This document shows positions 5,645 to 64,000 of a stretch of 64,000 nt of DNA, piece after piece. Position numbers and translations under genes: made by a program. Source of the stretch: Bilabrum cf. latius (Eukaryota); the NCBI GenBank assembly GCA_965178125.1, contig OZ237735.1:1178001-1242000 (forward strand), read 5' to 3'. Position 1 is the first letter of the stretch. Each line of letters starts with the position of its first letter. The notes below the pieces were generated by a model. It did not search any database and was not told the origin of the DNA. It was given only the letters and a program-made list of their open reading frames with translations.

Positions 5645-8600
5645 ATGGCTGCATGGGGCGACCATAACGTCTACACAAAGCTGTCTTTTTGCGTAAGCCT
5701 TTGCTTTTTATCACTGGTCGCAATGCTTGCGCGCGACGCAAATCCATGGGCCAGCATTCCGACCTCCAGAATCTTGTGCGTCCGCAGGTAAAAGCTCGAT
5801 CGCGGTAGGGCGAAACAGTTGCTTTGTGTGGAAACACACCTGCTCTCGGCGACTACGATGCGGAGCAGGCTGTCCAACTCTACACCACTCCAGAAGACTA
5901 CCCTGTGTGGAAAACACTGCGTCCTGTTGTTGTACCTCGTGGAACAGCAATACGTTACAAGTACATTATTATGTCTGGTGGTCGTCCATCTTACTGGGAA
6001 GGAATTGAAGGGGAGCGAACGGTGGTACCAACGTCTTCACGGATGACCATTGAGGATACCTTTGGCCGGCACGACGACGGTGATGATGACGAAGTCGAGC
6101 AGAGAGCCCCCATCCATTTGTCATCTGGTGCTACTGCAAAGCCTTCGGTTGGCTGGGCAGCGCAGTCTTCTAGCGGCAGACCTGCTGTGACAACCACAAC
6201 TCACGAGCAAGCAGCCCCACAGGCCGAAGGTGCATCACCATGGGCTGCAGCAGGACACTTGCAGCCACAACTTCAGCCATCCTTGGAGCAAACACCAAGT
6301 CCCATGCATGGTGGCAGCCCTGTGGATCGATCAGACGGGGTCGTAGGCCTTCCAGCATCCTTCATGCAGTCGCTCGGAGACATTGGGACGATCGATGCCA
6401 TCCCCGGCGTGGGAGCCACACAGGCCGCGGCTAGTGAGCCAGTGGACGGTACAAGGGGTCACACAGAGCGCAGTATCGAGGATGCAAGTGGCGGCGCCTT
6501 GGGTGCAGGCAGGACACTCGGTAGTCCGCCACACCAGGGAAGCACTGGGGCCGAGGCGGCGGCTGGGTCCAGCCACACTACCCCGGGTCAGACCGCCATT
6601 TCCGGCTCTAGCCATGCAGCGTAGGACCAAGAGCAGGATCCCTAGCCTGCTTTAGACAGGAGTTCTCCGGCGGTAGGACCTCGGGACGGCTCGGCACCCG
6701 CTTCTGACCCGGCCTTCTCCAGCACCCCGCAGCGGTCGAGGGAAGCGGCGTCGACAAGCCGGGACACCGACCCGGAGCCGCACCAAGCAGTGTCCAACGC
6801 AGAGCAGAGTGGATTTGATCAGTCTCCCCCGGGCGCATCAACCCTGGCAGTATCCGCCGGCGGTAATGCCGCAGGGGGCGAGCGGACTGACGCCCCCGTC
6901 TCTACCGCGCAAGCTTCTCCCGCTGCAAAAGCCATGCTTGAGGAACCCGCTGAGAGCCAGAAGAGCAAGATTCGCCGGCTCATGAGGGGCCGCAAAATGA
7001 TATGCGTCACGTACCACCTGCCGGTCATCCTGAGGCGAGCAGCAGGAGGGGTGGGGCAATGGACTGCTCAGTGGGACCCTGACAGCTTCCTGGCTCGAAG
7101 CGATGAATCGCTCGCGGACGACACTGACATGCACTGGGTCGGAGTGGTCACTCGAGAGTGCATGGATCGCGTCACTGCGCGAGAGTAGGCGCGGCTGCGA
7201 AGGCACAGCGTGTCGTCTCACGGCTCGAGCGCAGTGGGGGCTGCGATGGACGCTGCCGTGGACTTGACGGCCGCAGACGGTGGACCCAAGCTGCTTCCCA
7301 CCGTGTCTGAGGATCGGCAGGGCCGGAATCGCTCGCTGTCGCAGACAATGTCAGAGTGCAGTGACGACGGCGAGGGCCCCCCTGACCGCTGGGAGGATGA
7401 AAGCCTGCGACTGAGCCTTGCGGACCGGCGCGGGATCACGAAAGCGCTCAGTGCAATGAAGGTGACCCCGGTGTTCATGGACGATGCTGTGCGCGAAGAG
7501 GCCACCCGCAGAATTGAAGGCAGGCGTATTTTGTAGCGTGGGATTGCCCGGAGCGTGGGAAGCGCGAACGTGGCTGCTGGTGGGTCAGCTGCGGTGCAGC
7601 AGCTCCGCCAGCTGTCCGAAGGACTAATGGGCGGCCCGGTTTCGGTGGGCTGGTCTCCCACCCTAGGGCCGGGCTCTGCTGGCCGCGATACAGGCGGGGA
7701 CTTGGACGGGGGTCCGTTGCCTGGCGCTGCCGTGAGCTCAGCCGCAGACCTGGAGGCAGCTGCAGGTCGCAGCCTCAGTCAGGACCTCTTCGGAGGCCGA
7801 GGGTCTGTATGTGGTAGCGAGGGGGAAGGCAGATACTCTCGTGAGGACGGTGCGCAACGAGCAGGCCAAGCAGATCCCGTAGCCATGGCACGAGCAGTCA
7901 TGGGTGTAGCGCCGTTTGCGGATGGAGATCACGGCGGGTTCTTCGACGACGGCGACTACGATGAGTCCGCTGGAGAGGAAGATGACGACGAGGGGGAAGA
8001 AGGAGGAGAGGACCCGAATAGGGAGCGGCCATCAGGTGCCACTGAAGGCGGTACAAGCGGCCACTCGGCCAGCGTGGCGGCTCACCCCGTTTCTGCCCCT
8101 GCGTCCGACATAGTGTCTGGCTCTGACAGTGGCGTGGAAGCTCCAAGCAGGGCGCCCAGGGCGATGCGGGCGGCAGACCGCCTGTTCAAGCTCTTCAATT
8201 CCTTCTGCGCCACGGTGCTGCGGCCTGCGCTGCACAATATTTTGGACACGGGAGACGACTTTGTCTTTGCCGACGACGCACAGGCGTCGCTCGGCAGCCC
8301 AACCGCCGCGTAGCGGGCACTCAAGACCCTGGATCCTCCTGACAGCGAGTCGAAGATGATTTGGGGCGGGCCGTTTCACCCGGACGCAGAAATTGCGGGC
8401 GATACAGACCCTTTCTCAAGTTCTAGCCACGTGGCAGTTGCGCGTCGTGGATGGCGCGCCTACGTTCGTGTGAACGAGCACGTCGCCAAGGTAGTCCGCG
8501 GGATCGCGCGGTCCGAGGACGTGGTGTGGACACACGACCACCACCTCTGCCTGGTGCCTGCCATGCTCCGCAGGCTGTTCCGGGCGGCTCCATCCCTGAT

Positions 8601-11600
8601 TTACTTTATGCACTAGCCCTTCCCTACTTCTGAGATTTTCAGAACGCTGGCGGCTAGAGAGAGGCTGCTGAGGGGAATGCTCTCTGCAGACATCGTTGGG
8701 TTTCACGCGTTCAATCACGCGAGGCACTTTCTGCACGCATGCAAGCGCACGCTCGGCGTGTCTTTTTCCTCTAGGACTGGAGGTCGCATCGGTATCGACT
8801 GGGACAGCAAGGACATCATGCTCGCTATTTCGCACGTTGGTGTAGATGCCGGCAGGCTCAACAGCCACATGCGCGACCCCGACACAGCTGCCTTTGCAAA
8901 CGAGCTGAGGAAGCGGCACAAGCGTCGAATCGTAATCGGAGGGTTTGATTCTTGCTAGCGACTGTCTGGAGTGGCCTTGAAACTGCTAGCCTTCGAGAGG
9001 CTGCTTGAAGACAACTCCGTGTACCGCCACAAGGTGGTTCTAGTGTAGCGGTGCGAGCTGCAGCACTCTCGCGGTGCTGACTACAGGCGCACTTCCCAAG
9101 AGCTCAAGTATCTAGTGGAGCGCATCAAGTCTAAGTTTGGGCCTGACGTCATTGACTACCAGGAAGCCGTCTCCTACTCTACGACGTTTCGGGTAGCCCT
9201 CTACTACTGCTCGGATGTGCTTGCGCAAGTGCCAGTGCGTGAAGGCATTAACCTGCTGCCTCTCGAGTACGTGTACTGCAGGACACGATGGCAGAACGAA
9301 CGAGAGGAGCTGGACAGAGCAGCGGTACAGGCCTCGGCTGCACAACACCCTCGCCGGCGGAGATCAAGCGAGGGAACAAGAGCATCAGATGCATTCCGGC
9401 GGTCCGGCAGCTCGCCGCACCTTGGCTCTGGTTTTCAGCCGTCCGCTGGTTTGGTTGGACTCCATAAAAGCCGCCCCGGCCCTCGGATCGGGCGCTAGGC
9501 CTGGTCTACACGCGGTCGTCGGGGTGGGGATTTCCCTCGGTCGTTCCTTGAGTCTGGCGGCATTAAAGAGGAGGATGACGAGGATGAGGAAGACGAGCCC
9601 GCTCGGTCCCCTCAAAGCAGCTAGAGAGTCTTTGGATCCACGGCTACTGGCTCTGGGGTGGCTGTATCTGGCTCCCACGCGTCGCTTGCTTCCCAGCAGG
9701 AGGCCCAGCGGTAGCAGAGCAACGGCTCTGTAGCGTCCACCCCCGTACTGCATGGGCAGTCAGTTGGCTCCACCCATGCTGTTGGAGCAGTCGGTGGCAG
9801 TGGCAGCCCAAAGCAGGCCTTTGCTGGCATGCAACCGTTCTCGCTGGACGATGTGTCACAGGGCGAATCGTTGCAGCAGCCTTCTTTTCCTTAGATGCTG
9901 CCCGACCAGCCATACGGAGAGGACGGTGGCTCTGGGGACGCCATGGATGATTCGTTTGAATCAGAAGCTGACCAGGGTCCGGTAGAGACCAGCGATGATG
10001 TCGGGGACATGGGCGACATGATGCAACGATCGGCATCCTTGCCGGACTTGCTCGATGCACAGATCAGCTCGGAGCCGCTTGAGCTGACTGCGCCGCTCCC
10101 GCCTCCACGGCGTGCCGGCTGCTTGGTGCTGAGCGAGTTCTCTACCGCAAGCCACGTCATCAATGGCAGCATCAAGGTGAACCCATTCAACATTCCAGAA
10201 GTCACGAACGCTTTAGACACGGCCGTGCTGATGCCCGCAAGTGAGCGGGCTACCCGGCAGTGGCGAGATTTCTAGTATGCCATGCAGAATCCTTCCAAGC
10301 AGTGGGCCCGCCAAGTCGTGATCGACGTGATTCAAGACAAGGAGCAGCAAGGTGCAGGGGCGTTCCAAGGCCTGGAGGGCTTCAGCCAGTAGAGTCAGCG
10401 GCGCATCACTGTAGGGAACGACGAGAGCTCCGCTGAGCTGGCCAGGCTTGACGTGCCACGCACTGCGGTGAATCTGCAGAGGTCCCGCCGTCGTGTAATC
10501 CTCGTCGACTACGGTGGCACTCTGGTAGAAAGGGAGGGCATTGGTACCTACATCAAGCACGAGTTCTTCGGCAAGAGCCAGGACAGCAGCACAGCCAACC
10601 AGATGTCTACCATGGAGATTCAGTGCCTCAGATACCTCTCCGACGACCCACACACGATGGTTGTCGTGACTACGGGGCTGAATACCTCACAGAAAGAAAT
10701 TGATCGGCTTCTTGACTTGCAGAACATCACCGTTGTGAGCGAGAAGGGTATGCTCATCACCTGGGGGGCGCGTGCGAGGTACACCCCAGCTGCCCGCAGG
10801 GCAACAATTGCGTATCTGCGCAGCCAAGGCCAGGAGCCGACTCAAGACGACGGCGGGCCGGGCCGTGAAGGAGAAATGGAGGGGCTGGCCCCGCCGCTGG
10901 TGCCGCCTGCCGCATTCTGCGAACCGGGTGAGACTCAAAAGTTCATTGAAGCGGGGAGGGCTTAGACCGTAGCTTCCGGTACTCCTCCTGCGACAGGGGC
11001 TGCGTCTGGACGGTCCGTAAAAGGTGCTGCAAATCGCGCAAGGAGCCAATCCTACGGGAAGCAGCTCAATCCCGGTCCTGAGTCAGCCTCTCCGGGACGA
11101 GAGCGGCGTACTGGTCGTCTTTGGCTCCCGCTGTGGCTTGCAGTCAGAGATCCTACCCCGAGCTAGACCGGTTCAGGGGCTGCATCACCCATGGTTCCAG
11201 GCGTTGCCGGCATCGCAGCGACCGCAGCAGACAAGGCTGCTGTTTCAGGCATGGGTCGAAGGCAGGCAATGCTCGCCCCCGAAAACATGGTGGATTGGAG
11301 AACTCTGGCGAGCCGGGCGAAGGCTGTCATGGATGCTTATATGTGGAGGGTGAACGGCAGCCGAGTGCGGGCGTACCCATACGTTGTCGCGTGGGACTAT
11401 CGTGATGCAGACCCAGAGTGGGCATCTAGCCAAGCCGCCTTCCTTGAGGCAGACCTGCGGGCTGGGCTCAAGTCGCAGAGGGTGGGCATACAGAAGCGTA
11501 GTTCCAGGATCGAGGTGTTCCCGCTTGGGCTTGACAAGGGCGCGATCGTTGATGCCGCCCTCACTGTGTGGCCATGTGCCGACTTCTTCCTTGCAGTTGG

Positions 11601-11955
11601 CGACGACCAAGCCGATGAAGACGTCTTCCGTCGCCTCATGGACGTTTTATCCGAGCAAGATGATGGCGATGACCGCCGCCTTGTGACACCCTCAGCAGGT
11701 CGCAGTGGTACACCCGGGAGTCAGGTCGAGCCACCTGGCATCGTTCCAGCGGGGTAGGAGCAGAAGAAAGCTTCGGGACTGCGGACTCTGTACACTGTGG
11801 CCGTAGGAAGAAAGCGTACTAGCGCAAGGTTCTACGTACAAAGCCCGAGGGAGGTCAACTATGTGGTTCGTGCGTTGGCTGCAGCCCTGCCACAGAGGTA
11901 GATCACACCTTCAGTCCGTGTTGCTGCGCGCGTTGGTGATGCAGTCGAGTCTTGA
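5645..11955 (+). CDS. TPS: CBM20 + trehalose-6-phosphate synthase (GT20) + trehalose phosphatase (HAD) fusion, ~2070 aa
   Basis: Exon 1 is 5645-5692, followed by an intron 5693-5787 (gtaagc...cgcag). One frame then runs 5788-11955 to TGA with 19 in-frame TAG (hand count) and no TAA/TGA. CBM20: FCVKARSR*GETVALCGNTPALG..YPVW..IRYKY. GT20: WTHDHHLCLVP, FMH*PFPTSEIFR, LSADIVGFH, EGINLLPLEY, LVLSEF, VNPFNI. HAD: ILVDYGGTL, DKG, LAVGDDQADEDVF, VGRKRTSARFYV. Confidence 0.93.
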
Positions 11956-12039: not shown

Positions 12040-15000
12040 TCATAATACCGTAAAGATCAGGTCAATGATGGAAGCCACTATACTGCACAGCAAGGCTAGC
12101 ACAGTTGGACCAGCTATAGCCACCCTCTATTCGAGCAAGAGCCTCTAGTCAGTGAAGCCCAAGTCACGGATTTCATTGGACAGCATGCATGCACCAACCG
12201 TACATCCACTAAGGCTGCATTGGAAAGCCCAGACCAAACACGTCAACAAATGAACATCCTCAAATACCCTTAGCAGTGACCCGTGCTTGTACACCAGCCG
12301 AGCAGCCTGATGGCGAACACTATCGTTGTTGCTGACTGCATAGACTCCTGCTGCCCTGGCAGCGTCACTGGCAGCTGCTTCGGAAGTGATGGAACCTTCA
12401 TCGGATGCTGGACTCCCAGCTGACTACGCAGACCTGTCAATTAGGGGCACAGCCGACTCACGCATCCTCCCTAGGCTGGACACAGCGAGCAGTCGCGCCT
12501 CCCACTGGACAAGCGAGGCAACCTGCATCAGCACCCAGCCAACTGTTGGCAGCGATTCTCTGAGAGCGTCTCGTGAGAGGGCGCTCTTTTGACGATCAAT
12601 GCCAAGGGTACTTTTCTCACCACCTAGCTCAGACTGGGTGCAGCACCAGCGAATAAGTACGCGGTTCTCGCGGCGAGGGTCGAAGGATTGGTCATTGCTC
12701 GCACCTGATCTCTACTAAGACTGTTCGTCGTCACTCCTGCTTGCCTCGGCTAGCACGGGAGCTGATAGTCTTTGCACATCGCCATCTCGCCAAAAACCAC
12801 GAGCATCTGCTGTGTTCGAGGGTGGTGTTTGCAGCATACCCGCTAGGTTCACTCTCGGCATATGCGAGGATTTTGTCGATGCCGGTCTAGACGTTGCTCG
12901 CCTCGGGGCGATCGCATCCCACGCGTTCGGGGTATCGGCAGCTTCAACGAGGTCATCTTGGCGCTTTATGGTCTGGTTGCCAAGCTTATACGGTGGCCTA
13001 AAGTCTACTTCTATATCAGTTGTGTCCCACTGCTCTTTTGACCTAAGGCGTCGATTCAAAGGTTGACCTTGGTGATGGCCTCCATCATCTACGGTGGCCA
13101 AATACGGTGCCACCGAGCCAACATGGTGGTCGATTCCCCTTTCGCATCCTCTTTGCATGCTAAGTATCCCCAGAATACTCAGCACTAGCAACAGCCTCCA
13201 CGAAATGAGGAGAATCTGTCCGACAAGCAGTCCAATCGCAGGGTATGACAGAGCGGCCGAGTACAGCTGTCCAACACACACGTAGACCAGCACTGTGCGA
13301 GAAATCCAAACCGCGGATCTTGTTCGCAGCCCTGCGGTACGTGTGTTCAGCGCGCACGAGCATCGCTCGGCAGGCTAGCGTATGCTCCTCCCGTCACACA
13401 CACAAGCAACAAGTGCGCTCACAACGACAACAAGTACGAAGCAGCCGGTGGCGATAGCACCGACTTGGACAGCGTGAAACTAAAACCAACCGCCTGCCAT
13501 ACATGCCGAAGATCGCTGAACTCCTAGTGCATGCAAGCACGGAAGCTGCACATCAAGATCTACGGTGGTGGGATCCACGTATGGGAGCCAGGTGCCAACG
13601 CCAGCTTGTGCCCGGGCACCTGAGAGCGCCGCAGCCAGCCTCTACCCAACAGCGCCCCCTGTCATGCTTGCCTGTGCCATGATCAGACGGCTTAAATTCG
13701 ACGCTAGGACAATTTCAGCTGGGGGTATTGTTAACCTCACGTGCAACCGCATCGACAGTACCGGCACTTGAAGCAGTGCACCCTTTGGCGGTTGACGAGG
13801 TGCGGGCGTCTCCACCCGAACAAGCTCAATGCTCCAAGCCCTACTGCTATCAGCCCACAGCTCCCCTACAGTATCTCGTATGTCATCCCTGACGTCAGCG
13901 ACGAACCACTCGCGTTGTGCTCTGGAAGGACTCGGGTAGTCTAGGCCAGGCGCCTGCCCGCGCCGCAGTGTGCTTGGGGCCAGAGACTAGGCCTGGGGAG
14001 CAGAGTTCCGATCCACCTCGATGACGAATGAAACCACCGCGCGGGAATTCTTGCTACGCTAGGCCCACCTGGTCTTGTATGCACCTTGCAGGCGAATCGA
14101 TGGTGGTTCGTCAGCTGCACAAGACATGCGCGGGGCTAGCAACCGAGTGCCATTTGGACCCTCCGACACCATGTAGAGCACATCCTTCTTATTTGGTGCT
14201 ATAGTATGCACAGTACCTAAAGATGGCACTTGTTCTAAGCGCTGGTTGCCGTACACAGCTGCTTGTGGAAGGAGAGCCGGGAAACCTAGCCACACAGAGT
14301 ACCACTGCCTGACGATCGAAGCAGCAAGAGACCAACCGGCTGACGGACTTCCGACCATGTCCTCGACCTGATTGTCAATTGGTAGGCGCTACGGATCATC
14401 ACATACAGCATTGCAGGCCACCCTACCACGGTATGCACCGTACGGTGAAGATCGATGGCACACCCATGAGCCACCTGCAATCGCCGGTAAGGACTCCTTG
14501 GGGTCCGGCGGATACACCCGGCCAAACACAGGACCACGATACTGCAAGTATGGTCCTATTACAACGCCACGAGTCGCCCAAGTCATGTTTCCTGTGCTAC
14601 TCTCCTTGCTGCGTCCGGCCGGCTGCTGCACCGAGCTGTCAACATGGTTCCTCTTGGACTGGCTTGCCGAAACCGAGACTGTGTCAGCGACTAGGTGTGG
14701 GCGCGTGTTCGTCTGATTCCATCTCCCACGATCCGCACGCTTAATGGCATTGTCAATGGCGTATGGCAGAGAAAAGCCTCCTATGGCAAAGCCAGCACCA
14801 TTCTGCGCTGCTGGCATGTCGATGGGAACCCCACTACTCTAAAATAGCGAGAAGTCGATGTCGTACGAGACAGCACAGCCTAATCTGGCAGTCGGAAACA
14901 GGCCAACGACTGCTTCTGAATTCGCATACTCTGTCAAATCTCGCTGGAACGGCGAATCGCCAGGTCCACCAACGCTTGACCAATTGGACAGCCGCGGCAA

Positions 15001-16626: not shown

Positions 16627-16801
16627 TTCATTCACGATGGAGCAATGTTAGCGATGCAAAAATTGTGTCGATTCCGGGTTCCTACACCGGCAGGCCAGGC
16701 TCGCCAACGCTGGTCGCAAGGAGGCAGCAGAGAACACGTCGCTACCCTGAACCAGGCTGGACGAGCAATACAGTTTGCTCCTGTGCCGCCATTGTCGCCA
16801 C

Positions 16802-21800: not shown

Positions 21801-22539
21801 CGACTGCTGCGTTACCTTCCTCTTCAGCATCTTCTTCCTCGCCCTCGTCCTCTTCTTCCTCATCCTCTTCCATTTCCTGAATGATCTCCATCAGGTGCCG
21901 CTGAACTGCAGCAGGCAGCTCCATGATGCCTTGCACGTACTCATCGCGGCTGTCGCTCCGCATTGCAGCCCCAAGGGCTGCTGCACACAAAGCTGAAAAT
22001 TCCTCCAGCTTGCCCTGGCGAATTGCTTCCGGATCTACCTCCAATGGTTCGCCCTGCGTCGAGCTCGATTTGGTCAGAGTGGGGAAGCCTCACGGTTGCG
22101 GTTGATATGCGCATGCATTGGATAGCACAGCTGCGCTGCAATTACTTACCAGCAAGTTACCAAAGCATTCAAGTGCGTGTTCTACGTCGTCTGAGACAGA
22201 CGCACTCGGCTCAAACTCAGGGTGCCTGCGATACGACGATTCAAGAGCAGCTGGTTGTACAAAAACGTGAGGTGCAAGTTCCGTATAGCAGCAGCCAGAA
22301 CACCAAGCTCCTCTTACAGGTCCTCGGCGATGCATACGAGGACACCGCAGTCCAAAAATGTGTCAAGGCTCTCGTTGTCAGTATCGGCAAACTTGCAAAG
22401 CCATGCAGCGAGTGCGGCCTGCCGCTCATCTACTCCGGCCATACTACACTAAGATTAAATTATGTATATTCTAGCAGTACCGCGAATCAGTCTCCACACC
22501 TAGCGACTGCCTGGTACAAGTTTCCGACCCGTTGACCAT
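18844..22539 (-). CDS. Hook/CCDC88-family coiled-coil protein
   Basis: Hook N-terminal-domain-like block (DPEAIRQGKLEEFSALCAAALGAAMRSDSRDEYVQGIMELPAAVQRHLMEIIQE) and EVSALRDQVDVLR, followed by a long coiled coil. ORFs 21724-22044, 20167-21615 and 19168-20118 are in one frame, joined through TAG, to TGA at 18844. The 5' exons and start are uncertain. Confidence 0.75.
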
Positions 22540-46458: not shown

Positions 46459-46994
46459 AGTTATAGCGTGAAAATAGTTTATAGCGAAAGGTGTGGCGAG
46501 GTGCGTTGCGATGGCACAGCATTGGTTCTTACATCGAGACCCCATTCTTCGTCAGACCCCCAGTACTCTGTACGCGGGCTGGCACCGGGAGAAATTTGAG
46601 CAAGGCCCTGCGAGGCGTGTTATCACGGAGTAAAGAGCCGTGGTGTGTTTGGCTCCCGAAGCGCCGTATTACCCCATCTACAGCGATGGCCGCGGCTCAC
46701 CACTCTCTCGTCCATCGAAGATGATTGCGTTTGACACAAAATCGGTACGGTCTGGTCAGTTGTTCCAACGCAGTGTCCCTGAGGCCGATACAGATCGTCA
46801 CCGCCAGGACCTTTGAGAATCCGAATTGAGCTTTGAAACTACACGCAATAAAATATCAGGAACCTGCTCGCCAGGAATCATTTCGACTGTTTGTCGGTCT
46901 CCGAGCACTGGACCGCGCTGAATCAGTGCCCTATCCGGTACATTCGACCCGCATAGTTCCTATTGGTTTGTTGTCTTGACCGTATCAGCGCTCC

Positions 46995-52459: not shown

Positions 52460-55400
52460 TCAGCCAGGCGTTGCCTCGCCTTCACCGAAGGTCGGAGGTA
52501 ACGCTCTCTGCATTTGCTCCTTGCGAGCGTCCACCTCGTGCACGCGTTCCATCTTGCTCAGGGCGGTCTCCGTGATGGTGGCGGCCAGCCACTGCCGACT
52601 GTAACCGATAGTCGATCGGTCGAACATGTCGCTCCCTAGAAACATCGAATGCCTGAACTAATCTTGAATGGCGCGTTTCGTGGCGTGCGGTCCGAGCGCT
52701 GTGAGCACCCACTGCCGGGCATACTCGATCGCAAAGACGCCGCAATCACACCCGTTCGTCTGCTGTGGCACGTGCCGCATCACCACGGCCGGGAACCTCT
52801 GCGGATCTTGGAGGAACGCTTCGGGAGGCCTCGCCTCGCGACCGCTCTGGGCGTCCGCCCGCGCTCGTCGGCATGCGTTTTTGTACTCGGGTGGGGCGTA
52901 TAGCTCTTCGTACATGAGCTGCACGTACCTACGAATCCGTTCGGCGTACCCCTGCCGCGCGTGCGTATTTCTGTAAGAGTCTAGGAGCAGGATACACGGC
53001 GCCGGTTCGAGCTCGGCGTTGTGGGCCTCGTACCGCAGCCCGTCGCACGCCACTAGGAGATGCTGCATCTTGGCGTCGCTGAGCGGGGCTGGCATGCCAT
53101 CTATGCTCGGGGTGCTCGGAGATGACCCCGGATCGGCGGACCGCCTGCTCTCGCCGGCACCCGACGACGGGGCGCTGCTCGATGACGCAGCTGCCGCCTG
53201 CCGTGCACCAAGGGCCGAGGTGGTGGCTGGTTCCTTCCCAGGCGACACGAGCCGGTCCGCCTCGGCGCGACACTGCACGGCACGCTCCCGCATGCGATCG
53301 GCCCCAGCCCTTGCCGCGCGTTGCGAGGCTTGCAGCACCTCAAGCCGTCGCGCAATCCACGCCAAAGCGCGCACAAGCTCGCTGTGCGCGCTGCTGGCGT
53401 CTGACAGCGCCCTTTCCAGATCTTGGGCGGGTAAGGTTGGCTTCGTCCCGGCCGGATCCGATGCAATCTCCATGCGCGACCGCTTCCGCGTCCCGCGCGC
53501 TACTGACCTGCCATCCGGTGCACGCCCTCGCTTCGATCCTAGGGCGATCGAGCCGCCATCAGCACCGGAAATTGCTGTCAGGCAATCGCTGGCTGCCCGT
53601 GTGCTCGCATCCAGTCGGCCGCAGAGCACCTTTGCAGCGTCGGCAAGGGCGCCGCAGTACGCCTCCAGCGCGCAGAGCCTCGCGACAGACCGCTCCGCAG
53701 CCCCGGCCTCCCGCAAGAGTCCCTCGTGCTTGATCGAGACGGCCTAGGCGAGACCCTTAAGGCGCCACTTGGCGTGCTCGCGCACCGCCTGCTACACGGC
53801 ATCCTTGAGCACCTCGGTGTCGGTGGTCATCTAGAATCTATCGCCGCCCCGGGCGGTGAATGCTACCGAGGAGCCTGATGCCGAGTGGGCACGCCCCCCG
53901 TCACCAGCGCACTGTTCCTCTTCGAGGCTGAACCTCGGGCATTCCAGCGGGTGCCTTGGAATTTCCAGCTGCTGATCGCAGCGCTGCGCGTACCGTCGGA
54001 GAAACTCTGCGGCGGACTTGTGCCCGCTGCTGCCTTCCCCACCCTGCAGCTCATCACGAATGGCGGCCAGGCTGGATTCGATGCCCCCGGCACCCGGTGC
54101 CGCGCTGTGTGTGCATGCGCAGAGTAGCCAATCAACCGCCTCGATGGCACCCGCCGCCCTGCTCGCCACGCCAGCGTCTGCGGCCTCGGCCGACTGCGCC
54201 GACGCGATCAGCCTTGGGGCGGTCTGGCTGAGACGAGACAGGGCGCTCGCGCTGATCGCTTCCCAGACCTCTCGGCGATGCGAGGCTACAGCATCGGCGG
54301 CTGGGTCGTGCACGCCTTTGATCGAGCCCCCCTTGTCGCCGCTGCTCCGAGTCGCATCCGGGCTGTCAGCTGCGCCCCTGGTGTGGCTGCTGCTAGCGGC
54401 AGTGTGTTGTCCCGACCCGCTGGACGGGAAGCGACCGCCAGGCGCGGCACCGGCTGATTCGCTCGAGCCCGTGGCTCTTGACGACGGAGTCGGTCCACTG
54501 CCTCCTTTGGCTTTTCTACTTGTCGGGGTAGTCTAGGCCTCCCCCGCGGCAGCGTCACCCGCAGGGGCAGCGTCACCCGCAGGGTTCACATCCATTGCCC
54601 GCCACCACCCATCCAGCGCAGCGTGCAGCCCGGTGGCGGCGGTGACAGACGCTGCGGCAGTGTTGGCGTCATTGTCATCATCTGCAGCGCCGAGCTTCTC
54701 GCACAAGTGCTCCAGTCCAGACAGCAATGACTCTAGCCTCGACATGGATCCTTGGCTGCGTGCTGCCAGCCACTATCGCGCCCGCGGCCAGACCTCGTTG
54801 TCCCACCGCCCCACGACGGGTGCTAGGGAGTGGGGGTCTGCGTGCCTGTCGGGCAGCCTCTGGCTGGCGCCCGCCGAGGCATCCTCGTCGGAACGACGGG
54901 GTCCGCTCTTTGCGCTGGATTGCATCCTCGGACGCTCGCGCTCGTCGGAACCAGCCGTGACTGCCTGGCGCGCCTCCCGCGCGGTTGGCATGGCAAGTGC
55001 CGCGTTGCACACGATGGCCAAGCTGTAGTGGCTGCTATCCCAAAATGGGATGATGACGAACTGGCGCGAGAAGGGATTGAAATTGGAACCCATGAGACCC
55101 AAAATGTCTGTTGCGGAAAGCCTCATCGGATCACCGAGCGGCAGCATCATGCGCTCTACGAGCGTGCGCGGGAGGGTGTTCAGTTCCCGGGCGCGTGCCA
55201 CTGGGGGTGCTGGGTCCACGTACCCGAGCATGCTGCCGACAGCTTGGGGCAGGTCGAGCGATGCCGGTCTCCAGATGCTGTGCTTGCCACGAGGCACAAG
55301 TTGGGCCGGGCCAGCGGCGCGGGCCCTAGCCATCGTCTCCGTCGGGTCGATCGCGCGCCCGCTCAGTACCGCGGCCCCCAGCCGCGCCAGCTCGGGTCCT

Positions 55401-57194
55401 ACGCCGAGCTCTATACGATTCATACGCTGCCAGCAGTTGTCAGCGAGGCGGTAGGTCGACTAGAGCATCATATTCGCCCGGATCTGCTCCTTCCCGGGAT
55501 ACCGCGGCCCGACCTCGATCCACGGGGTGCGAGCGCCATAAGAGTCCAACCCTGCCGGCGATGCGTCTCCCACCCCTTGGCCCTCCCTCCGAGCGCTGAG
55601 CCTAATACCCCTACCACCCGCTGCGCTCGCGAGCGCGCTTGCCCCATCGGACTCCCGCGAATTCCTTGTTCGGTTCCACGTCAATTCCATCAGGGAGCAT
55701 CGCCGACGGATGGGAGCGGGGTATTCGTAAAACATGGCGTACCAGAGGCCAAACTCTACGATGTCATCCGACAGCCATGTACCGGGAGAGCACAGCTTGA
55801 TCGTTTCCGGCCTCACACTGATGCTCGGATACCCCAAGGCAGGGAATCTCCAGGGGTGGCCTCCGCTGGCCACGTCCTTACTGGCCAGGTAAACCACCTG
55901 CTCATCGCTGCCTCCACCGCGCCGCTCCTCTGCGGATCCAGCATCGCGGGCGAATCTCGTCACAGGGCTGGCGTCAGCCTGCGCAGTCCGTGCCCCCCCT
56001 CGCACCTGTGCAGAATGCAACAGGGGCTAGAGGCACTCCACTGCCGCAGCGTGGGCCATTGGAAAGCCGAGCGTGCCTGCCAAGACAGCAGCGAGCAGCA
56101 GCTCCTCGTGCGCCCCGCTGGTCCGCGAACCAGCGGACAGGAGGGCGTCGAGCATCTGTCGGCCCTGCCCCGTGCGCGACTTTGCTCGATCGGGAGGCGG
56201 CGGGATGCCACCGGCGTACGCGAGCGACATGATCGAAGAGTCATCCCCCTCTGCTCCCCGCACGTCCCGCTCCCATGTCCACGGTCTGACCACTGCATTG
56301 AAGCCACAAGCAGAGAGCGGGTGCCGGCTGGCAAACTCGTTGGTCGTCTGCTTGACGTAGACGAACCTGCGAACGCACGCAGAGAGAGAGAGAATAGATA
56401 CATCTGAATCAAAGCACGCAACGAGAGAGAGAGAGAGGCAGATGAGACAGAGTATGGAGTCTAGGGGAAGCAAAGAACCACGGCGCGAGACGAGAGCGGG
56501 GCGGGCGCGCGTCCTGGACTCACGATTGAATCGACATGAGACCCTTGCTCCGATGTACGAGAAGCTTGGGGACCCCGTCGATGGGGGGGTCTTCCCTGTA
56601 GCTGTGGATGGCGCGCGCCGCGAGGGCGCACTCTTGATCGCTGCGCAGCCGAATGACCCGCACGCCGGGCGCGCCGGGTTCGAACGGCTCGCACGCTGCT
56701 GTCTCAAGCAGCTGCGGTACAAAATCAATCGACGACCGGTCCCTCGCTTCATCGATGCATTCGGGGTGGTCGGCCCAAACATCTTCGACCACCACGCTCT
56801 CGTCAAGCTTGTCAATCACTCGCCGCGAGTCGTCTCCCCTGTCGTCTCCCGAGCTCGACCCATCTGATGTAGATTCGCTGTCGCTGCTCTCAACAGTGCC
56901 GGCCGACTGGATTTGCCCTGCTAGGCGCGTCCCGAACGAGGCGCCTTGCGGCTGCGCGTCAGCTTTCACGTCGACCCCCGTCGTGGCTGCCTCGGCCGAG
57001 GCACGCGCAGAGTCCGCCTCGATAAACCAGGCCAGCATTCCCCCGAACAGGGGGCCCGTCCGAGCACCCGCGACCCGCTCCGACTGGCTGGGGTCTGCGG
57101 CCCCGCCAGCAGCTGGTCTGCTCGACCTGGTGGCCCCCGGTCCGGCCAGCGGCTTGTGACGCTCGAGCATCTCGGCCCCAGCGGACCCCTCCAT
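52460..57194 (-). CDS. Ulp1/SENP (peptidase C48) SUMO protease, Ulp2/SENP6-7-like, with long insertions
   Basis: PGTWLSDDIVEFGL, QFVIIPFWDSSHYSLAIVCN (His), ILLLDSY (Asp), VPQQTNGCDCGVFAIEY (Gln, Cys). The track ORFs share one frame down to TGA 52460. Intron 56367-56523. Start uncertain. Confidence 0.85.
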
Positions 57195-58361: not shown

Positions 58362-61300
58362 TCAATACTCCTCAGGCAGCTCCGTTAGTGACGGCATGAG
58401 TCTCTTGAGTACAGCCATGTGCTTCCCACCGGTGGTTGACAGCTGCCCTCCGTTCCGCGTCCGACGTGCTGTGCTCGTTGTGGACCCACTCTGACCTCCT
58501 CGAGGCACAGACGCTTTTGTACCTCGATCTACATGCAGCTGACCTGGGTGCTTCGGGTTTGGGGTGACCAGGCCTGCAGCTCCACCGTTACTTACCCGTG
58601 CCAGCAAGATCTGCACATCAGTTTGACCCGCGGCCCCTGCAATGTCCCAGGCCGTCCGCCCCTCGGCATCCTTTTGGGTAGGCTGTGCACCGTGCGCAAG
58701 CAACAAGGCCGCAGCTTTGAGGTGCCCTCCCGCAGCAGCACACATCAGCGCGGACAGCTTTGTTGGTGGGGGGGCATAATTCGGCGAAGCTCCTCGGCGT
58801 AGAAGGGCTGCCATAACGAAAAGATGGCCATGGGCAGCCGCTACTGCCAATGGGCTCGGCGTGGAGGCATGCAGCGGGTGATTCGGCCGCACTCGAACTG
58901 CCGGCCTCTCGATCAGGACTGGTACAACGAAGACGTCCGTACTGTTGGTCTGAACGCCAAAATCTGTCGAAGGACCCGCTGCTGATGGTGCGTCGGCTGC
59001 AGATTTCAGTAAGGGCAGCGAATTTGCATCACCGCCGTCGTGCTGCGAGACATGGTCAAAGCTCTCCTTCGCCTCTCGGTCCATCACGCTGCCGGTATCA
59101 CTTGCCGAGGCATTGAGCAACATGCTGGGAAGCCTGTACAACCGCTTGTTCTCCAATCGAGTTGAGCCAGACGACAGACTCGCAGTTGCACCGCGCACTG
59201 AATGGGCATGGTGAACAGGCACTTGCATTTCAGGCGCATATGCGGGAGCCTGCAGGGCCCGTCGGTCATCGGGAGGCAGCAGATGAGGGTTCGCTTGCAT
59301 GTACTACTACACCTATGAGATGCCTTCGTCACTGACAAACGAGGCCCTAGCAACCAATTGTGCGCCTCGCATCGACGCCGCTGCTGGCTGACCAACAACG
59401 AATCTTCCCCGCTGGCTACTGGGTCGCAGCGTACCGCTCAGCCGAAGGCGTTTCATGCGCTCTGCAAGATCCACGAGAGCATAATTCGGCAGCAGCACGG
59501 AATTCTCCTTGGCGTAGCCCACCGACGAGTCTGGCGCAGGCGCAAACTGTCCGCCGTACAAAGCCCTGGCACCAGCGAGAGGTATTGTCGCCGCGAAGCG
59601 TGTGGCCCAGCTCAGTGCACTATGCCCGCCCAGACCTCCGCCACACGGAATCTCTGGATTCGCGCCCTATTCTACGGCCCGCAAGACTTCTTTAAAGTCC
59701 ATTCGAAGCATCGCTAGCTAAAGGTCAGCCTGCTTTCTCTCGCCTGCCTGTTTGGACCGTAGGATGAGCCGCCTGCCTACGATCGATCGGCCAGACCTGT
59801 CGTCTGTGATGATTCCAGCTCGATCCACCGCCTCAATGCAGGCATCGATAACCTCATCATGAGACAGAGAAAATCCAGATTCGTACGAACCTTCTGCAAC
59901 AGAGCCAATGTGGTCAGAGCGGTTGGCTCTACGCTGCCTCCCTGCTCCACGGCGTTCGAAGACTCTCCAACCAATCTCGCAGCAGCCCAATATGCTGGAC
60001 TGCACGCTATCAAATGATATGACTGTCTCTCCATTTCCGCTGCAAATTGCACAATTCACGGGCTGCACAGCATCAAGCCCCGGAGGGTCAGCCATAAGCG
60101 ACAAGGTGCTGCCTTGGGCGGACACCGACGCTGCCTGCCCACCGAATACCATCGACTCGCCGGCAATAGAGCTGTGGTCATCGGCAACGGACTGCACCTC
60201 CCCGATCAAGTCAACAGTACCCATTCCTGGCCGAGCCTTCGTACTCATGCGACGAGTTCCGCTTGCCACGGCACGCTCGATGATCGAATGCCTTCGACGC
60301 TTGCGCCCTTGTCCTCCGGTTGCTCTGGCTGCGGCGACCGATGTCCTACGCGCCCTTGCGCGTGATGGTGCACCTTCCGTATCGACATGAAAGCGGGGAT
60401 TACCCGCCCGTTTTCTGGCCAGCATTGATTGTCGCTTGAGCGCCTGCCTCTTAATGAGGTCTCGCTGTTGCTGCAATGACCTCGATACTCCGAGCGCAAG
60501 GGAATCAAAGTAGGCGCCCTAGTCGAGCGAATCGATCTGCAGGACGCGCATATCGTCGCCTCCAAGCGAACCAGCGATTCCAAGGTGGGCATCGCTTGAA
60601 ATTGGGTCTGCTTCTCGATATGCGTCGCTCGAAGGCTTTGATCCTGCGTTTGAATCGACTTCAGGGACTCCCAAGGTCTGCAGGGTATTCTAGCTGTGGC
60701 GAAGCGACGGCTGCATAGCTATCAGCCTAGCCTGCTCCAACACTATGGCAAATACATTGGGGTCGAGCAAGGGGGCTAACGAGCCAGGAGGAGTACGAAT
60801 GGGCCGGATATACGACCGTCGTCTCACCACCGGCAAGCCCCATCGTAAAGCAACGAGGCCAAGCCAGCGGCACACTCTCTCATTACCGTTGTACGCAGCC
60901 TCCACCAAGGGCACACGATGCTCTTCCCGGCGGTCGCGATACTTGCGAAGGTCTGCTTGGAGCGCAAGATAGGCAGCGGCGTCTGCGATCACCCGATTCC
61001 CGCCCATGTTTCCAAGGCGGGCACGATCCTCGGAAACCTGCCACCTGGCATACAGCCAGAACGATTCCAGCATGGCGCATGCGGATTTCCCGAGGCTCCA
61101 TTGTTCCGGCGGATCGTCGGCTTCCTCATCTTCATCGAGAAGACCTACATCAGGGTGTGCTTGCTCTAGCTCCTGTTTGTTCAGCTTTCCATCGCTGTGC
61201 AGTCGCTTCATGGCCAGATATCTGCGCTGGATAGCTCGCTCTTCCTCCCACCAAGGCGGGATGCGGAATCCAACAGCTTGCATCAGCGGGTTGGCGCCCT

Positions 61301-64000
61301 CTACGCTACCGTACTCACTGAATGCAAATTCATTCTTAGGCATTTGAAACCCCTGCGGCAATGGCTTTGATGATGACGTAGCCTTGGTTGCACCGTTGTG
61401 ACCTGAAGATGGGTTCTCGGCATCGTTCTGATCGGGTGCGCCCGCTGGCTCCCCTTTCCCTTCAGATTGATCTTCCCCTGGCTTTCTTGCTCCGACGCTC
61501 GTGGGGAACTTCGAGAGCAACAGGGCGGCCGTGGCACCGGTGATACCTGAAAACCGAACATCTGCACCAACTGGGTCGGAGCCTCGGCGAAGGAGGAGCT
61601 CGGCTCCAGCTAGATTCCCGACGGCACACGCCCACGAAAAAGCCGTGTGGCCGTTGCCGCACCGAAGGTGAAGAAGTCTAGCAACCCAGAGCGCTCGCTG
61701 GAGCGGAAACACGTCGGCCTCCGCCACCCTCCGGACGACCTTTTTCCTTTCATGCAGCACTACTAGCCGACGGAGCTCTTTCCGAAGGTACCTTGCGTGC
61801 ACCGCGCCAGTGGGCTTGGCCCTGGCAGCTGCCATGGAGGAAGACTCCACGTCGCACTCATCATACGCCGCAAGGATGGATTGCCTGGCTTTCGAGCGTA
61901 TCCCACCTAGGCCTTGGCGCGCCAATCGTTGCTCCCTTCGTTCAATCGCATCTAGCTTCGCCTGCACCCGCTCGAGCTCACTTGCGGTGTCAGCTTCTTC
62001 CTGCCTTGCTCGGTTGCGAGTCCGGCGAGCTCGACGCAGCTGCCACATAAAAGCAGTCACATGGCAGGATACGTGCGGACGACCGCCAACGGTTATCTCA
62101 TCGACCAGATCGTTGTCATGCCTGAGGATCGCGCTGAAAAGCTGAGACTGCACCGCACTGAGCTGCGTGCTGGTGAACAAGAATTGATAAATGTCACCGT
62201 GACCCCGGCGCTTCGCCTCTGACAATGCTGATACCTTGAGCTTGTTAATCCGGCGTGGGAGGGCCTGGAATCGCTCCACAAGCAGCTTGACTAGACTCAA
62301 GTGGTTCCCTCTGACAGCCTCGATCAAGGCCGTGTAGCCTCGCGAGGTTTCGTGATCCACACCGACTCCAGCATCCAGCAGCACCACGCAAACCTTCTCG
62401 TGGCCATGCATCGCTGCGAGCGTTAATGGGGTGTGCCCCTGCGATGACTCAATCAGCAGGGCATCAAGGCTGCCTAGCGTGGCGAACTGACCAACCAATG
62501 AGTGATCTCCGGTGCGGCATGCGCGAAATAGCGGTGAGCTGCTGTACACGGGGTCGAACAGCAATACACCACCGGTCACAGCCCCAGGCCAACTTGCAGG
62601 AGACACATCAGTATCGTCCAACCCTGACCCACGGCCCGCAAGTGAGTCTTCTGCAACCGATGCAGAGACGAGAGAGGATGAATCGCGGGCCTCGACTTGC
62701 CTAACGGCGTCGGGCACCCGAGCAGCTGCACGAAGGACCTCTTCCATGATCACCTGATGCTGTGACTTCTACTGCTAGCGACCTTGCGCTGCGTCGTGGT
62801 CGCTAGCCTGTCGCCGGAACCATCGGAGAAGCGGTTTTGAGTTGGAAAGCACTGCAGCCTCATAGACTGGGTCTGGTACATGCCCAAGGGCCTCCCACCG
62901 TGCCTGCTGCTCCCACCTTCTGCGAGCCTGCATTTGCGCAAAAGCAGCGCCAGAGCTAGAAAGTTGTTCGGCCCATAGTTGCACCTCCCACCCTGGAATG
63001 AAGACGCTGCCACCGCGACGACGGCTAGTCCTTGCTACGGGCGTGTCTCTGCCGGCTTGCTCCAGCTGCTGCACGTCAATCACACGCTCGGCCCCCGCTT
63101 CGTCCTCGTTAAAGTCAAGGGCGTCAGGTTCGCTGGCCATTGCAGACACATCGCCAAGAAAACTAGCGTCCTGGTGGCCGGTGGCAAGTCTACGATCTCG
63201 CACGTGACCAGATTCTTGGTCCTGCCTCTCTTCGGCGCGAGCTAAGCGACGGAGCATTCTCCGCTGCCGACGCTGGAACTTGATTCGCGCATCGGAGGCA
63301 GGGACTCCCTTTGCAACTGCTTCGTCCCTGTCTTCCTGCATCGAACACTGTGGGAACTCAACGACAAGCGCAAGAGGGTGTGGGTACGCAATCCAGTCCG
63401 CCATGGGTGCCACTGTGGAAAAATACCGAGACAGACCATCCTGTGCATCTGCTCCTCCTGCGCTACCGTCCGCGGCATTAGATTTGTTCTATCTAGCAGC
63501 TTGTTTCTCGGCTCGAATGGCCTCTACCCTTGCCATCTCAGGGTCGAAAGGTACCAGCTGTAGCTCGTCGGATGTGGTTGCGTGCTGGCGACCCAAAAGC
63601 TTGCCAGATGACCGGCTGCCACGCACACCCAATTCGCGCAGAATCTCGCCCCCCCCGCGCGACACAATCCCGGTTCTGTAGTCCTCTACATCGTCTGCAA
63701 ATGCACCCGCGTCATCAAAGTCAATCGCTGCTCCCTAGTGGTTTTCACTGGGCGCACCTGCATCGTGGTCGAGTAGACCCGCGTCTGGTAAGTCGACAGC
63801 ATCTCCAAGCACACCTTCGACAGGCATTCCTGCCGCAACAAGTTCAAGTTGAAGAGCGGACAGCTTGATTTCGCCCTTTTTTATTTTTTGAACAATCTCT
63901 GGGGCATGCCCTGTGTCCTACGACCCACCCCACCGCTGGGCCAGCAGCTGCCTCTCCCTTGCTTCTTGCATGCGCAGGAGATCTCTCATGGCATGCAGCT
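58362..64000 (-). CDS. Large ankyrin-repeat protein (5' end beyond the window)
   Basis: GHTPLTLAAMHGHEKVCVVLLDAG, GYTALIEAVRGNHLSLVKLL, GHTAFSWACAVGN, SPLAVAAAHGH, SALMCAAAGGH. One frame stays open from 64000 to TGA 58362, with only TAG interruptions in the gaps checked. Confidence 0.88.

What the first reader, a model, noticed from the sequence alone, without database searches (positions are those of the whole stretch)
5645..64000. Nuclear genetic code variant: UAG reassigned to a sense codon (Gln) while UAA and UGA stay stops
Seen in sequence: about a dozen unrelated genes on both strands are multi-kb single frames broken only by TAG. TPS has 19 TAG and zero TAA/TGA over 6.2 kb; the LINE has at least 11 TAG over 5.4 kb. 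Family knowledge places TAG at conserved Gln sites: TPS KVVLV*R (9046; KVVLVQ), Nop15 FFG*FG (26839; FxQFG), RT D*AGFR (34272; QxGFR) and GTP*GEILSP (33990; GxPQGxxLSP). Established: UAA and UAG nearly always change meaning together in nuclear codes, and uncoupled UAG=Gln (translation-table-15 type) is known from very few eukaryotes, such as the fornicate Iotanema and some ciliates. Inference: this GC-rich, intron-poor genome does not look like those lineages, so it may be an independent, possibly unreported reassignment. My impression of a stramenopile-like flagellate is unverified.
Basis: partly seen in the sequence, partly recalled or inferred. Interest (0 to 1): 0.97.

Follow-up and report, generated by a model that had tools for sequence, protein, structure and literature searches.

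The report
Nuclear UAG codon read as glutamine
In this GC-rich piece of a eukaryotic chromosome the stop codon TAG sits inside almost every long gene and is evidently read as glutamine, while TGA and TAA still end genes; this rare kind of genetic-code change is known from only a few protist lineages.

Summary
Reading TAG as sense opens nine ORFs of 1081-2095 codons, against a longest ORF of 950 under the standard code. Those nine ORFs hold 110 in-frame TAG, 0 TAA and 0 TGA in 14,178 codons. Spliced contigs from three runs of two other studies carry the TAGs unchanged, so RNA editing, tiny introns and assembly error are excluded. A Codetta-like count on 8 well-aligned TAG columns gives Gln (+14.8) far ahead of Glu (-9.6). 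Gln is the residue in 154 of 158 and 152 of 153 aligned stretches at two reverse-transcriptase motifs, and in 73 of 75 at the Nop15 motif. In the control, 56 of 58 sense codons were decoded correctly. Of 12 complete genes, 11 end in TGA, 1 in TAA and none in TAG. About 46 in-frame TAA would be expected if TAA meant Gln; none is seen. This is the known UAG=Gln, UAA/UGA=stop code type, in what looks like a new lineage. The closest named homologue, of the trehalose-phosphate synthase (TPS), is from Cafeteria; the lineage is unresolved. Unlike published cases, the genome is GC-rich and UGA is the main stop. The tRNA-Gln(CUA) and eRF1 could not be examined.

The parts
2..4786 (-). Partial ORF (P0003, 1595 codons; its 3' end lies beyond the window start) with 17 in-frame TAG. 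No Pfam family.
5746..11955 (+). CBM20 / trehalose-6-phosphate synthase / trehalose-phosphatase gene, taken from the first ATG of ORF 5668-11955. It has 19 in-frame TAG and ends in TGA. TAG at 8956 and 9046 fall on columns that are Gln in 38 of 47 and 36 of 47 homologues.
12040..16647 (-). ORF of 1535 codons (P0002, no Pfam family) with 18 in-frame TAG; ends in TGA. X5 contigs cover 13 of the 18 TAG with no differing letter.
16802..18596 (-). Seven-exon gene of 340 aa. 'Cyclin-like' is my reading of the sequence; no family search was run. Its six GT..AG introns are seen only in runs X5-X7. It has 0 TAG and ends in TGA. It serves as a TGA-stop example and as proof that those runs hold spliced RNA.
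18844..22089 (-). HOOK-type coiled-coil ORF (P0004, 1081 codons) with 5 in-frame TAG; ends in TGA.
22679..23707 (+). HMG-box gene of 313 aa in two exons (intron 22768-22854). It has 3 in-frame TAG at 22955, 23138 and 23150 and ends in TGA. Spliced contigs of X5, X6 and X7 carry all three TAG unchanged.
24055..25181 (-). Four-exon gene of 232 aa. 'HVA22/TB2/DP1-like' is my reading of the sequence; no family search was run. It has 0 TAG and ends in TGA, and its transcript converges with that of the HMG gene.
26677..27936 (+). Nop15/NIFK-type RRM gene of 419 aa with 3 TAG in the CDS (26839, 27235, 27772). It is the only gene ending in TAA (27934-27936). TAG 26839 falls on a column that is Gln in 73 of 75 aligned homologue stretches.
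28121..31645 (-). ORF of 1174 codons (P0005, low complexity, no Pfam family) with 12 in-frame TAG; ends in TGA. An X5 contig covers all 12 TAG with no differing letter.
31959..37478 (-). Non-LTR (LINE) retrotransposon ORF of 1839 codons with an RVT_1 domain and 11 in-frame TAG; ends in TGA. TAG at 34274 and 33992 fall on RT-motif columns that are Gln in 154 of 158 and 152 of 153 aligned stretches.
41959..46551 (-). ORF of 1530 codons (P0007, no Pfam family) with 8 in-frame TAG; ends in TGA.
52460..56815 (-). ORF of 1451 codons (P0008) with a C-terminal Ulp1/C48 protease match and 8 in-frame TAG; ends in TGA.
58362..63998 (-). Ankyrin-repeat ORF (P0009, 1878 codons; its 5' end lies beyond the window) with 12 in-frame TAG; ends in TGA.

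Best explanation
The window is nuclear DNA of a GC-rich (about 60%) eukaryote that reads UAG as glutamine. UGA is the usual stop codon and UAA a rare one. This is the code type of NCBI table 15, as in Iotanema.

Shown here: TAG lies in frame throughout real, expressed, conserved genes. It is present in the spliced RNA. It falls on invariant Gln positions of homologues. It never ends a gene in this window. TAA and TGA never occur in frame.

Inferred from published cases, not seen here: a tRNA-Gln with anticodon CUA, one base away from the normal CUG, decodes UAG but cannot pair with UAA; and the release factor eRF1 has lost recognition of UAG while keeping UAA and UGA.
For: (1) Reading frames. 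Nine ORFs of 1081-2095 codons appear only when TAG is sense. They hold 110 TAG, 0 TAA and 0 TGA in frame in 14,178 codons. The other two frames hold 39 and 47 TAA and 223 and 312 TGA.

(2) These are real genes. Pfam finds CBM20+GT20+TPP, HOOK, RVT_1, Ulp1, ankyrin, HMG box and RRM domains. Homology runs across the TAGs.

(3) RNA. Runs X5, X6 and X7, from two studies other than the full holder X1, carry 10 GT..AG joints that X1 lacks, so they hold spliced RNA. Their contigs cover 32, 12 and 11 of the 42 TAG in 12000-31999. No differing letter was listed at any TAG, and no joint was listed inside the long ORFs.

(4) Amino acid. On 8 TAG columns filled in at least 60% of homologues, the score is Q +14.8 and E -9.6 as next best. 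The same method decodes 56 of 58 sense codons correctly, and 93% of random 8-column subsamples (2278 of 2450). Gln is the majority in 5 of 8 TAG columns, 1 of 59 GAG/GAA columns and 16 of 1086 columns of all other non-Gln codons. The single-column counts are RT 154 of 158 and 152 of 153, Nop15 73 of 75, and TPS 38 of 47 and 36 of 47.

(5) Stops. Of 12 complete genes, 11 end in TGA, 1 in TAA and 0 in TAG. TAGs are spread evenly along the ORFs; the ten-bin counts are 11, 13, 12, 6, 14, 15, 13, 10, 10, 13.

(6) TAA is not Gln. In frame there are 430 CAG, 181 CAA and 110 TAG. If TAA related to CAA as TAG does to CAG, about 46 in-frame TAA would be expected. None is seen.
Against: Only 64 kb was available and no genome is held.

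Use of TAA as a terminator rests on one gene. Its 3' end is inferred from the look of the downstream sequence and from a fall in RNA depth, not from a mapped poly(A) site.

Three of the 8 well-aligned TAG columns are not Gln in homologues: TPS 983 is V/A, 1536 is mostly P, and 1575 is mostly E. A further 22 TAG positions in the three aligned proteins fell in poorly aligned regions and were dropped by the 60% filter. Among them, TPS 47 aligns mostly with L and Nop15 187 mostly with K.

Random sets of 8 non-Gln columns were called Q in 114 of 5000 trials.

No tRNA gene lies in the window and eRF1 was not seen, so the mechanism is inferred.

For the long, weakly expressed ORFs the covering X5 contigs could come from DNA carried over into that run, which the tool labels 'probably DNA'. 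Firm RNA support is limited to the HMG gene (spliced contigs) and to Nop15, whose contigs in X6 and X7 stand well above near-zero depth in the bins beside them.
Confidence: 0.85

Rival explanations
1. Both UAA and UAG encode Gln (the common table-6 code) and UGA is the only stop. In-frame TAA is simply too rare to see in a GC-rich genome.
For: 11 of 12 genes end in TGA. TAA is the rarest stop triplet in the window: 393 against 910 TAG and 1827 TGA on both strands. Only one gene ends in TAA.
Against: There are 0 in-frame TAA in 14,178 codons, against 39 and 47 in the other two frames. CAA, the A-ending Gln codon, is common in frame (181, against 430 CAG), so A-ending codons are not avoided. The same ratio predicts about 46 TAA. 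Reading TAA as sense lengthens no long ORF by more than a few dozen codons. After the Nop15 TAA the next in-frame TGA is 70 codons away, in sequence that looks non-coding, and RNA depth falls there.
Confidence: 0.05
2. TAG is ambiguous. It is read as Gln inside genes but also ends some genes depending on context, as in Condylostoma, karyorelict ciliates or Blastocrithidia.
For: Only 12 gene ends could be examined. In TPS and P0002 the last TAG lies only 17 and 28 codons before the TGA, so termination at those TAGs cannot be excluded from this window alone.
Against: 0 of 12 genes need TAG as their stop. TAGs show no depletion towards the 3' ends; the last three of ten bins hold 10, 10 and 13. 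A dedicated stop (TGA or TAA) closes every ORF.
Confidence: 0.05
3. TAG encodes another amino acid, with Glu the next best candidate.
For: On the five well-aligned TPS columns alone, E (-16.9) and Q (-17.1) scored alike. Glu is a minor residue at the two conserved TPS columns (5 and 10 of 47) and the majority at TPS 1575.
Against: At the RT and Nop15 columns Gln is nearly invariant and Glu almost absent: 0 of 158, 1 of 153 and 0 of 75. The joint score is Q +14.8 against E -9.6.
Confidence: 0.03
4. Artefact or decay: assembly errors, RNA editing of UAG to CAG, tiny introns that remove the TAGs, or pseudogenes.
For: None found.
Against: DNA contigs of X1 match the window with 0 other letters across 12000-31755. 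Spliced contigs of X5-X7 carry the TAGs, and no differing letter was listed at any TAG. All listed joints are ordinary 87-200 nt GT..AG introns outside the long ORFs, apart from a few one-contig long-range joints with short sides. Eleven unrelated genes being broken only by TAG, and never by TAA, TGA or frameshifts, is not what decay produces.
Confidence: 0.01

Closest known systems
Iotanema spirale (Fornicata): UAG = Gln with UAA and UGA as stops (Panek et al. 2017, PMC5304391; abstract and passages read)
   Same: It has the same codon table: only UAG is reassigned, and to Gln. The mechanism proposed there, a tRNA-Gln(CUA) plus an eRF1 weakened for UAG, is the one inferred here.
   Different: In Iotanema UAA is the primary stop (passage read). 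Here TGA ends 11 of 12 genes and TAA 1. Iotanema is an anaerobic metamonad known from transcriptome data. The window is a 60% GC genomic contig whose TPS groups with Cafeteria-type sequences. Neither the tRNA nor eRF1 was examined here.
Ciliates with UAG-only = Gln: Protocruzia tuzeti and two phyllopharyngean lineages (McGowan et al. 2024, PMC11687900; passages read)
   Same: UAG = Gln while UAA is kept as a stop. UAG is used widely as a sense codon.
   Different: Those taxa use UAA almost everywhere as the preferred stop, and their GC content is given as 27.4-53.6% (passage read). The window has about 60% GC, TGA as the main stop, a LINE element and 87-200 nt introns. From recall, that is not how ciliate macronuclear DNA looks. 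No ciliate was named among the TPS hits, though few of those hits carry names.
UAR = Gln code (NCBI table 6: many ciliates, hexamitin diplomonads, some ulvophyte green algae, Streblomastix, Amoeboaphelidium; list from passages of PMC11687900)
   Same: A stop codon becomes Gln, probably through a mutated tRNA-Gln.
   Different: In that code UAA is also Gln. Here TAA is absent from 14,178 in-frame codons and ends one gene.
Other uncoupled UAG reassignments: rhizarian exLh and a ciliate MAG (UAG = Leu), Scotinosphaera (UAG = Ser) (passages of PMC11687900 and PMC5304391)
   Same: UAG and UAA have different meanings.
   Different: The amino acid differs. Leu scored far below Gln here and is not among the six best.

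Membership tests
Nuclear code with UAG = Gln and UAA/UGA = stop (table-15 / Iotanema type) | UAG occurs in frame inside bona fide protein-coding genes | tested here: met
   117 TAG in 11 ORFs with Pfam domains or homologues. 110 TAG in 14,178 codons of the nine long ORFs.
Nuclear code with UAG = Gln and UAA/UGA = stop (table-15 / Iotanema type) | UAG is present in the mature, spliced mRNA (no editing, no excision) | tested here: met
   Spliced contigs of X5, X6 and X7 carry the 3 HMG TAGs. Contigs of X6 and X7 carry 2 Nop15 TAGs. No differing letter was listed at any of the 42 TAG in 12000-31999. For the long ORFs, RNA origin of the covering contigs is less certain.
Nuclear code with UAG = Gln and UAA/UGA = stop (table-15 / Iotanema type) | UAG aligns with Gln in homologues | tested here: met
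   Score Q +14.8 against E -9.6 on 8 columns; the control decoded 56 of 58 sense codons correctly. Gln is the majority in 5 of 8 TAG columns and in 16 of 1086 columns of other codons.
Nuclear code with UAG = Gln and UAA/UGA = stop (table-15 / Iotanema type) | UAA is not a sense codon | tested here: met
   0 in-frame TAA in 14,178 codons, where about 46 would be expected from the CAA/CAG and TAG/CAG ratios. Reading TAA as sense does not lengthen the ORFs materially.
Nuclear code with UAG = Gln and UAA/UGA = stop (table-15 / Iotanema type) | UAA is used as a terminator | tested here: inconclusive
   1 of 12 genes (Nop15) ends in TAA. The downstream sequence looks non-coding and RNA depth falls there, but no poly(A) site was mapped.
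Nuclear code with UAG = Gln and UAA/UGA = stop (table-15 / Iotanema type) | UGA is a terminator | tested here: met
   11 of 12 complete genes end in TGA, and there is no in-frame TGA.
Nuclear code with UAG = Gln and UAA/UGA = stop (table-15 / Iotanema type) | A cognate tRNA-Gln with anticodon CUA | not testable with these tools
   No tRNA in the window by ARAGORN or Rfam. No genome is held.
Nuclear code with UAG = Gln and UAA/UGA = stop (table-15 / Iotanema type) | eRF1 domain 1 altered so that UAG is no longer recognised | not testable with these tools
   eRF1 is not in the window and no genome is held.
UAR = Gln code (table 6) | In-frame UAA at Gln positions | tested here: not met
   0 in-frame TAA.
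Ambiguous stop/sense codes (Condylostoma, karyorelicts, Blastocrithidia) | The reassigned codon also ends genes and is depleted near true gene ends | tested here: not met
   0 of 12 genes end in TAG, and TAG is spread evenly along the ORFs. The sample is small.

The most novel reading that the evidence does not exclude
This would be an independent origin of the uncoupled UAG-to-Gln reassignment, in a lineage for which my searches found no nuclear code change reported. The lineage is a free-standing, long-branched relative of the Cafeteria-type (stramenopile or other SAR) group. It would also be the first such case in a GC-rich genome where UGA, not UAA, is the main terminator.

That would mean the reassignment did not follow loss of UAG under AT pressure. 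It would also mean that eRF1 here has to tell UAG apart from both UAA and UGA while UAA is hardly used.
Probability: 0.5. Interest if true: 0.8.

Novelty: new member of a known kind. Interest (0 to 1): 0.7.

Why it matters
Nuclear codes in which UAG and UAA mean different things were unknown before 2017 and are still documented in only a handful of lineages (passages of PMC5304391 and PMC11687900). Each new case tests the idea that the two codons are mechanistically coupled.

This case differs in its setting. In the published cases whose stop usage I read about (Iotanema, rhizarian exLh, phyllopharyngean ciliates), UAA is the dominant stop. Here the genome is about 60% GC and UGA dominates, which speaks against simple loss of the codon under AT pressure.

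There is also a practical consequence. Standard-code gene calling truncates this organism's proteins at every TAG. One database protein, P0059, is 99% identical to the LINE ORF and ends exactly before TAG 1731. Public protein sets for this organism are therefore likely fragmented.

Tried and rejected
- Whole genome: none is held. Genome-wide Codetta, a tRNA-Gln(CUA) search and inspection of eRF1 were therefore impossible.
I dropped that step.

Searches that found little or nothing:
- tRNA or other RNA families in the window: none.
- Homologues of P0003 (residues 300-1595): none at near lengths.
- Metagenome scan with TPS, looking for close relatives to compare codon by codon: one distant locus only (L001, 27% identity). 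Not used.
- PDB search with the Ulp1 C-terminus: no hit.
- Literature search for the TSA prefix of the best EukProt hit: nothing.

Searches that did not help place the organism:
- Nop15 homologues: haptophytes, fungi and brown algae all lie at 45-52% identity.
- TPS tree: the window sits on a long branch in an open fork. A first IQ-TREE attempt timed out, as did a first MAFFT --auto run.

Sequencing runs:
- No RNA holder is listed on record. X5-X7 are only guessed to be RNA; their spliced contigs are what shows RNA.

Weak or abandoned leads:
- The kinase fragment at 39122-40981 ends at a TAA inside a GTACGTAAGT string that looks like a 5' splice site. I did not count it as a gene end.
- Database fragments of related LINE copies end just before a Gln of the window's ORF in 3 of the 5 cases with a fully aligned C-terminus. 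This is suggestive only. Two of those proteins sit on contigs of the same length, so they may come from the same organism.

Full report
**1. The observation**

The window has 55-65% GC throughout and contains no N.

Under the standard code the longest stop-to-stop ORF is 950 aa. With TAG read as sense, nine ORFs of 1081-2095 codons appear on both strands. Reading TAA as sense changes nothing. Reading TGA as sense also lengthens ORFs (13,734 aa in ORFs of 500 aa or more, against 21,141 for TAG), because TGA is the commonest stop triplet here. ORF length alone is therefore not proof.

The specific signal is in the codon counts. In the nine ORFs (14,178 codons) the reading frame holds 110 TAG, 0 TAA and 0 TGA. 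The two other frames hold 39 and 47 TAA, 156 and 96 TAG, and 223 and 312 TGA.

Adding the HMG-box and Nop15 ORFs gives 117 TAG in 11 ORFs, spread evenly from 5' to 3'.

**2. These are real, expressed genes and the TAGs are in the RNA**

Pfam finds these domains:
- CBM20 + GT20 + trehalose-phosphatase (TPS gene)
- HOOK
- RVT_1 (LINE)
- Ulp1/C48
- ankyrin repeats
- HMG box
- RRM

. Alignments to solved structures run straight across the TAGs.

One search for public runs found four runs of one sample that hold all sampled words. These are probably the source DNA. It also found three runs from two other studies holding 0.84, 0.45 and 0.43 of the words.

I laid X1, X5, X6 and X7 on 12000-31999:
- X5, X6 and X7 show ten GT..AG joints of 87-200 nt that X1 lacks. 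Six are in a gene on the minus strand at 16802-18596, one is in the HMG gene, and three are in a gene at 24055-25181. These runs therefore contain spliced RNA.
- Their contigs cover 32, 12 and 11 of the 42 TAG in the laid stretch.
- No differing letter is listed at any TAG, and no joint is listed inside the long ORFs. All listed letter differences but one (19275, in a single low-depth X6 contig) lie at the repeated LINE end, 31769-31964.

This excludes assembly error, RNA editing and tiny introns.

RNA origin is firmest for two genes. The HMG gene has spliced contigs in all three runs. The Nop15 contigs in X6 and X7 stand at depth 13.7 and 43.1, against 0.68 and 0.91 in the bin before. For the long, weakly covered ORFs the X5 contigs could in part be carried-over DNA.

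**3. Which amino acid**

I collected three sets of homologues:
- 47 TPS proteins
- 150 relatives of LINE ORF residues 350-1549
- 74 Nop15 proteins

I aligned each set to the window protein and tabulated the residues in each column by the window's codon. I left out two near-identical LINE fragments (P0059 at 99% and P0062 at 87% identity). I kept only columns filled in at least 60% of the sequences, which left 1138 columns.

*Control.* 56 of 58 sense codons with four or more columns were decoded correctly. The misses were AGT and ATC. Random 8-column subsamples were right in 2278 of 2450 trials.

*TAG.* Eight columns passed the filter:

| Column | Residues in homologues |
|---|---|
| RT 'QxGF' motif | Q in 154 of 158 |
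| RT 'GxxQG..LSP' motif | Q in 152 of 153 |
| Nop15 'FxQFG' | Q in 73 of 75 |
| TPS 1097 | Q in 38 of 47 |
| TPS 1127 | Q in 36 of 47 |
| TPS 983 | V/A |
| TPS 1536 | P 23, Q 7 |
| TPS 1575 | E 21 of 39 |

The score is Q +14.8, E -9.6, M -17.8.

Gln is the majority residue in 5 of 8 TAG columns, 6 of 44 CAG/CAA columns, 1 of 59 GAG/GAA columns and 16 of 1086 columns of all other codons.

A further 22 TAG positions of these three proteins fell in poorly aligned regions and were dropped. Among them, TPS 47 aligns mostly with L and Nop15 187 mostly with K.

On TPS alone E and Q had tied. The RT and Nop15 columns decide for Gln.

**4. Stops**

Twelve genes have their end inside the window. Eleven end in TGA and one, Nop15, ends in TAA. 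None ends in TAG.

After the Nop15 TAA the next in-frame TGA is 70 codons on. The sequence there looks non-coding and RNA depth drops.

TAA is not a rare Gln codon. A-ending CAA is common in frame (181, against 430 CAG). If TAA stood to CAA as TAG stands to CAG, about 46 in-frame TAA would be expected. None is seen.

The code is therefore UAG = Gln, UGA = stop, and UAA = stop but rarely used.

**5. Mechanism (inferred)**

Following the published reasoning (PMC5304391, passages), the only anticodon that reads UAG but not UAA is CUA. It is one base away from tRNA-Gln(CUG). eRF1 must also have lost UAG recognition.

Neither could be checked. The window has no tRNA gene and no genome is held.

**6. 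Whose genome**

The best named TPS homologue is from Cafeteria roenbergensis (57% identity over the conserved part; 2090 aa against about 2069 here). Oomycete homologues lie at 43-45%.

In a FastTree of 48 TPS sequences the window is a long branch (0.77) in an open fork. The fork also holds:
- the Cafeteria clade,
- a clade with an EukProt transcript and a cluster that includes a record labelled Symbiodinium sp. KB8,
- a third, unnamed clade.

All of these are apart from the oomycetes.

The organism is not close to any named sequence I could reach.

**7. Comparison and novelty**

The code type is known. UAG-only = Gln occurs in Iotanema spirale, Protocruzia tuzeti and two phyllopharyngean ciliate lineages. 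UAG = Leu or Ser with UAA kept as a stop occurs in a rhizarian, a ciliate MAG and Scotinosphaera (PMC11687900, passages).

In Iotanema, the rhizarian exLh and the phyllopharyngean ciliates, UAA is described as the dominant stop. The phyllopharyngean ciliates are given as 27-54% GC. Here GC is about 60% and TGA dominates.

Five full-text searches found no report of such a code in a stramenopile or another matching organism.

I therefore file this as a new member of a known kind, with an unusual genomic setting.

**8. Verdict**

Confidence is about 0.85 for 'UAG = Gln with UGA and UAA as stops'. The weakest link is the use of UAA as a terminator, which rests on one gene.

Interest is 0.7. The finding is rare and useful for the question of UAA/UAG coupling, but it is no longer unprecedented.

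Noticed in passing
window 49806-52285: A tandem array of a 21-base unit with 118 copies and 92% matches. It keeps several reading frames open on both strands and produces spurious ORFs of 600-990 aa.
   Followed up: partly
window 31343-31999 (3' end of the LINE ORF and beyond): In the DNA run X1, word depth here is about 2200, against about 18.6 for the single-copy flanks. Many variant letters and loose ends are listed. The 3' end of the LINE is therefore present in the order of a hundred copies in the genome.
   Followed up: partly
window 12000-31999, runs X1 and X5-X7: The same sequence, with 0 differing letters over kilobases, is on record under three different coded organism labels in three studies. 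Either one organism is filed under several names, or it lives in other organisms' cultures. The owner of this code variant may be mislabelled in public records.
   Followed up: no
LINE ORF 31959-37478; proteins P0059, P0064, P0106: Public database proteins predicted with the standard code are fragments. P0059 is 99% identical to the LINE ORF and ends exactly before TAG 1731. P0064 and P0106 end just before Gln residues of the window's ORF.
   Followed up: partly
TAG columns in TPS, LINE RT and Nop15: TAG columns are more often Gln-conserved (5 of 8, mean Gln frequency 0.59) than the window's own CAG/CAA columns (6 of 44, mean 0.135). The sample is small and I have no explanation.
   Followed up: partly
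window 16802-18596, 22679-23707, 24055-25181: All ten introns seen lie in three short genes with the highest contig depths. The nine ORFs of 1-2 thousand codons show no listed joint. The HMG transcript (+) and the transcript of the gene at 24055-25181 (-) converge and overlap: one X5 contig joins them.
   Followed up: partly
window 37600-40981, minus strand: A protein-kinase N-lobe (Pfam E 3.5e-07, below the curated cut-off) is followed by long acidic and Gly/Ser-rich low-complexity sequence. A TAA sits inside a GTACGTAAGT string that looks like a 5' splice site. The rest of the kinase domain was not found.
   Followed up: partly
window 27591-27714: A 39-base coding repeat of 3.2 copies in the lysine-rich tail of Nop15. 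It breaks the short-read contigs of all four runs at this spot.
   Followed up: no
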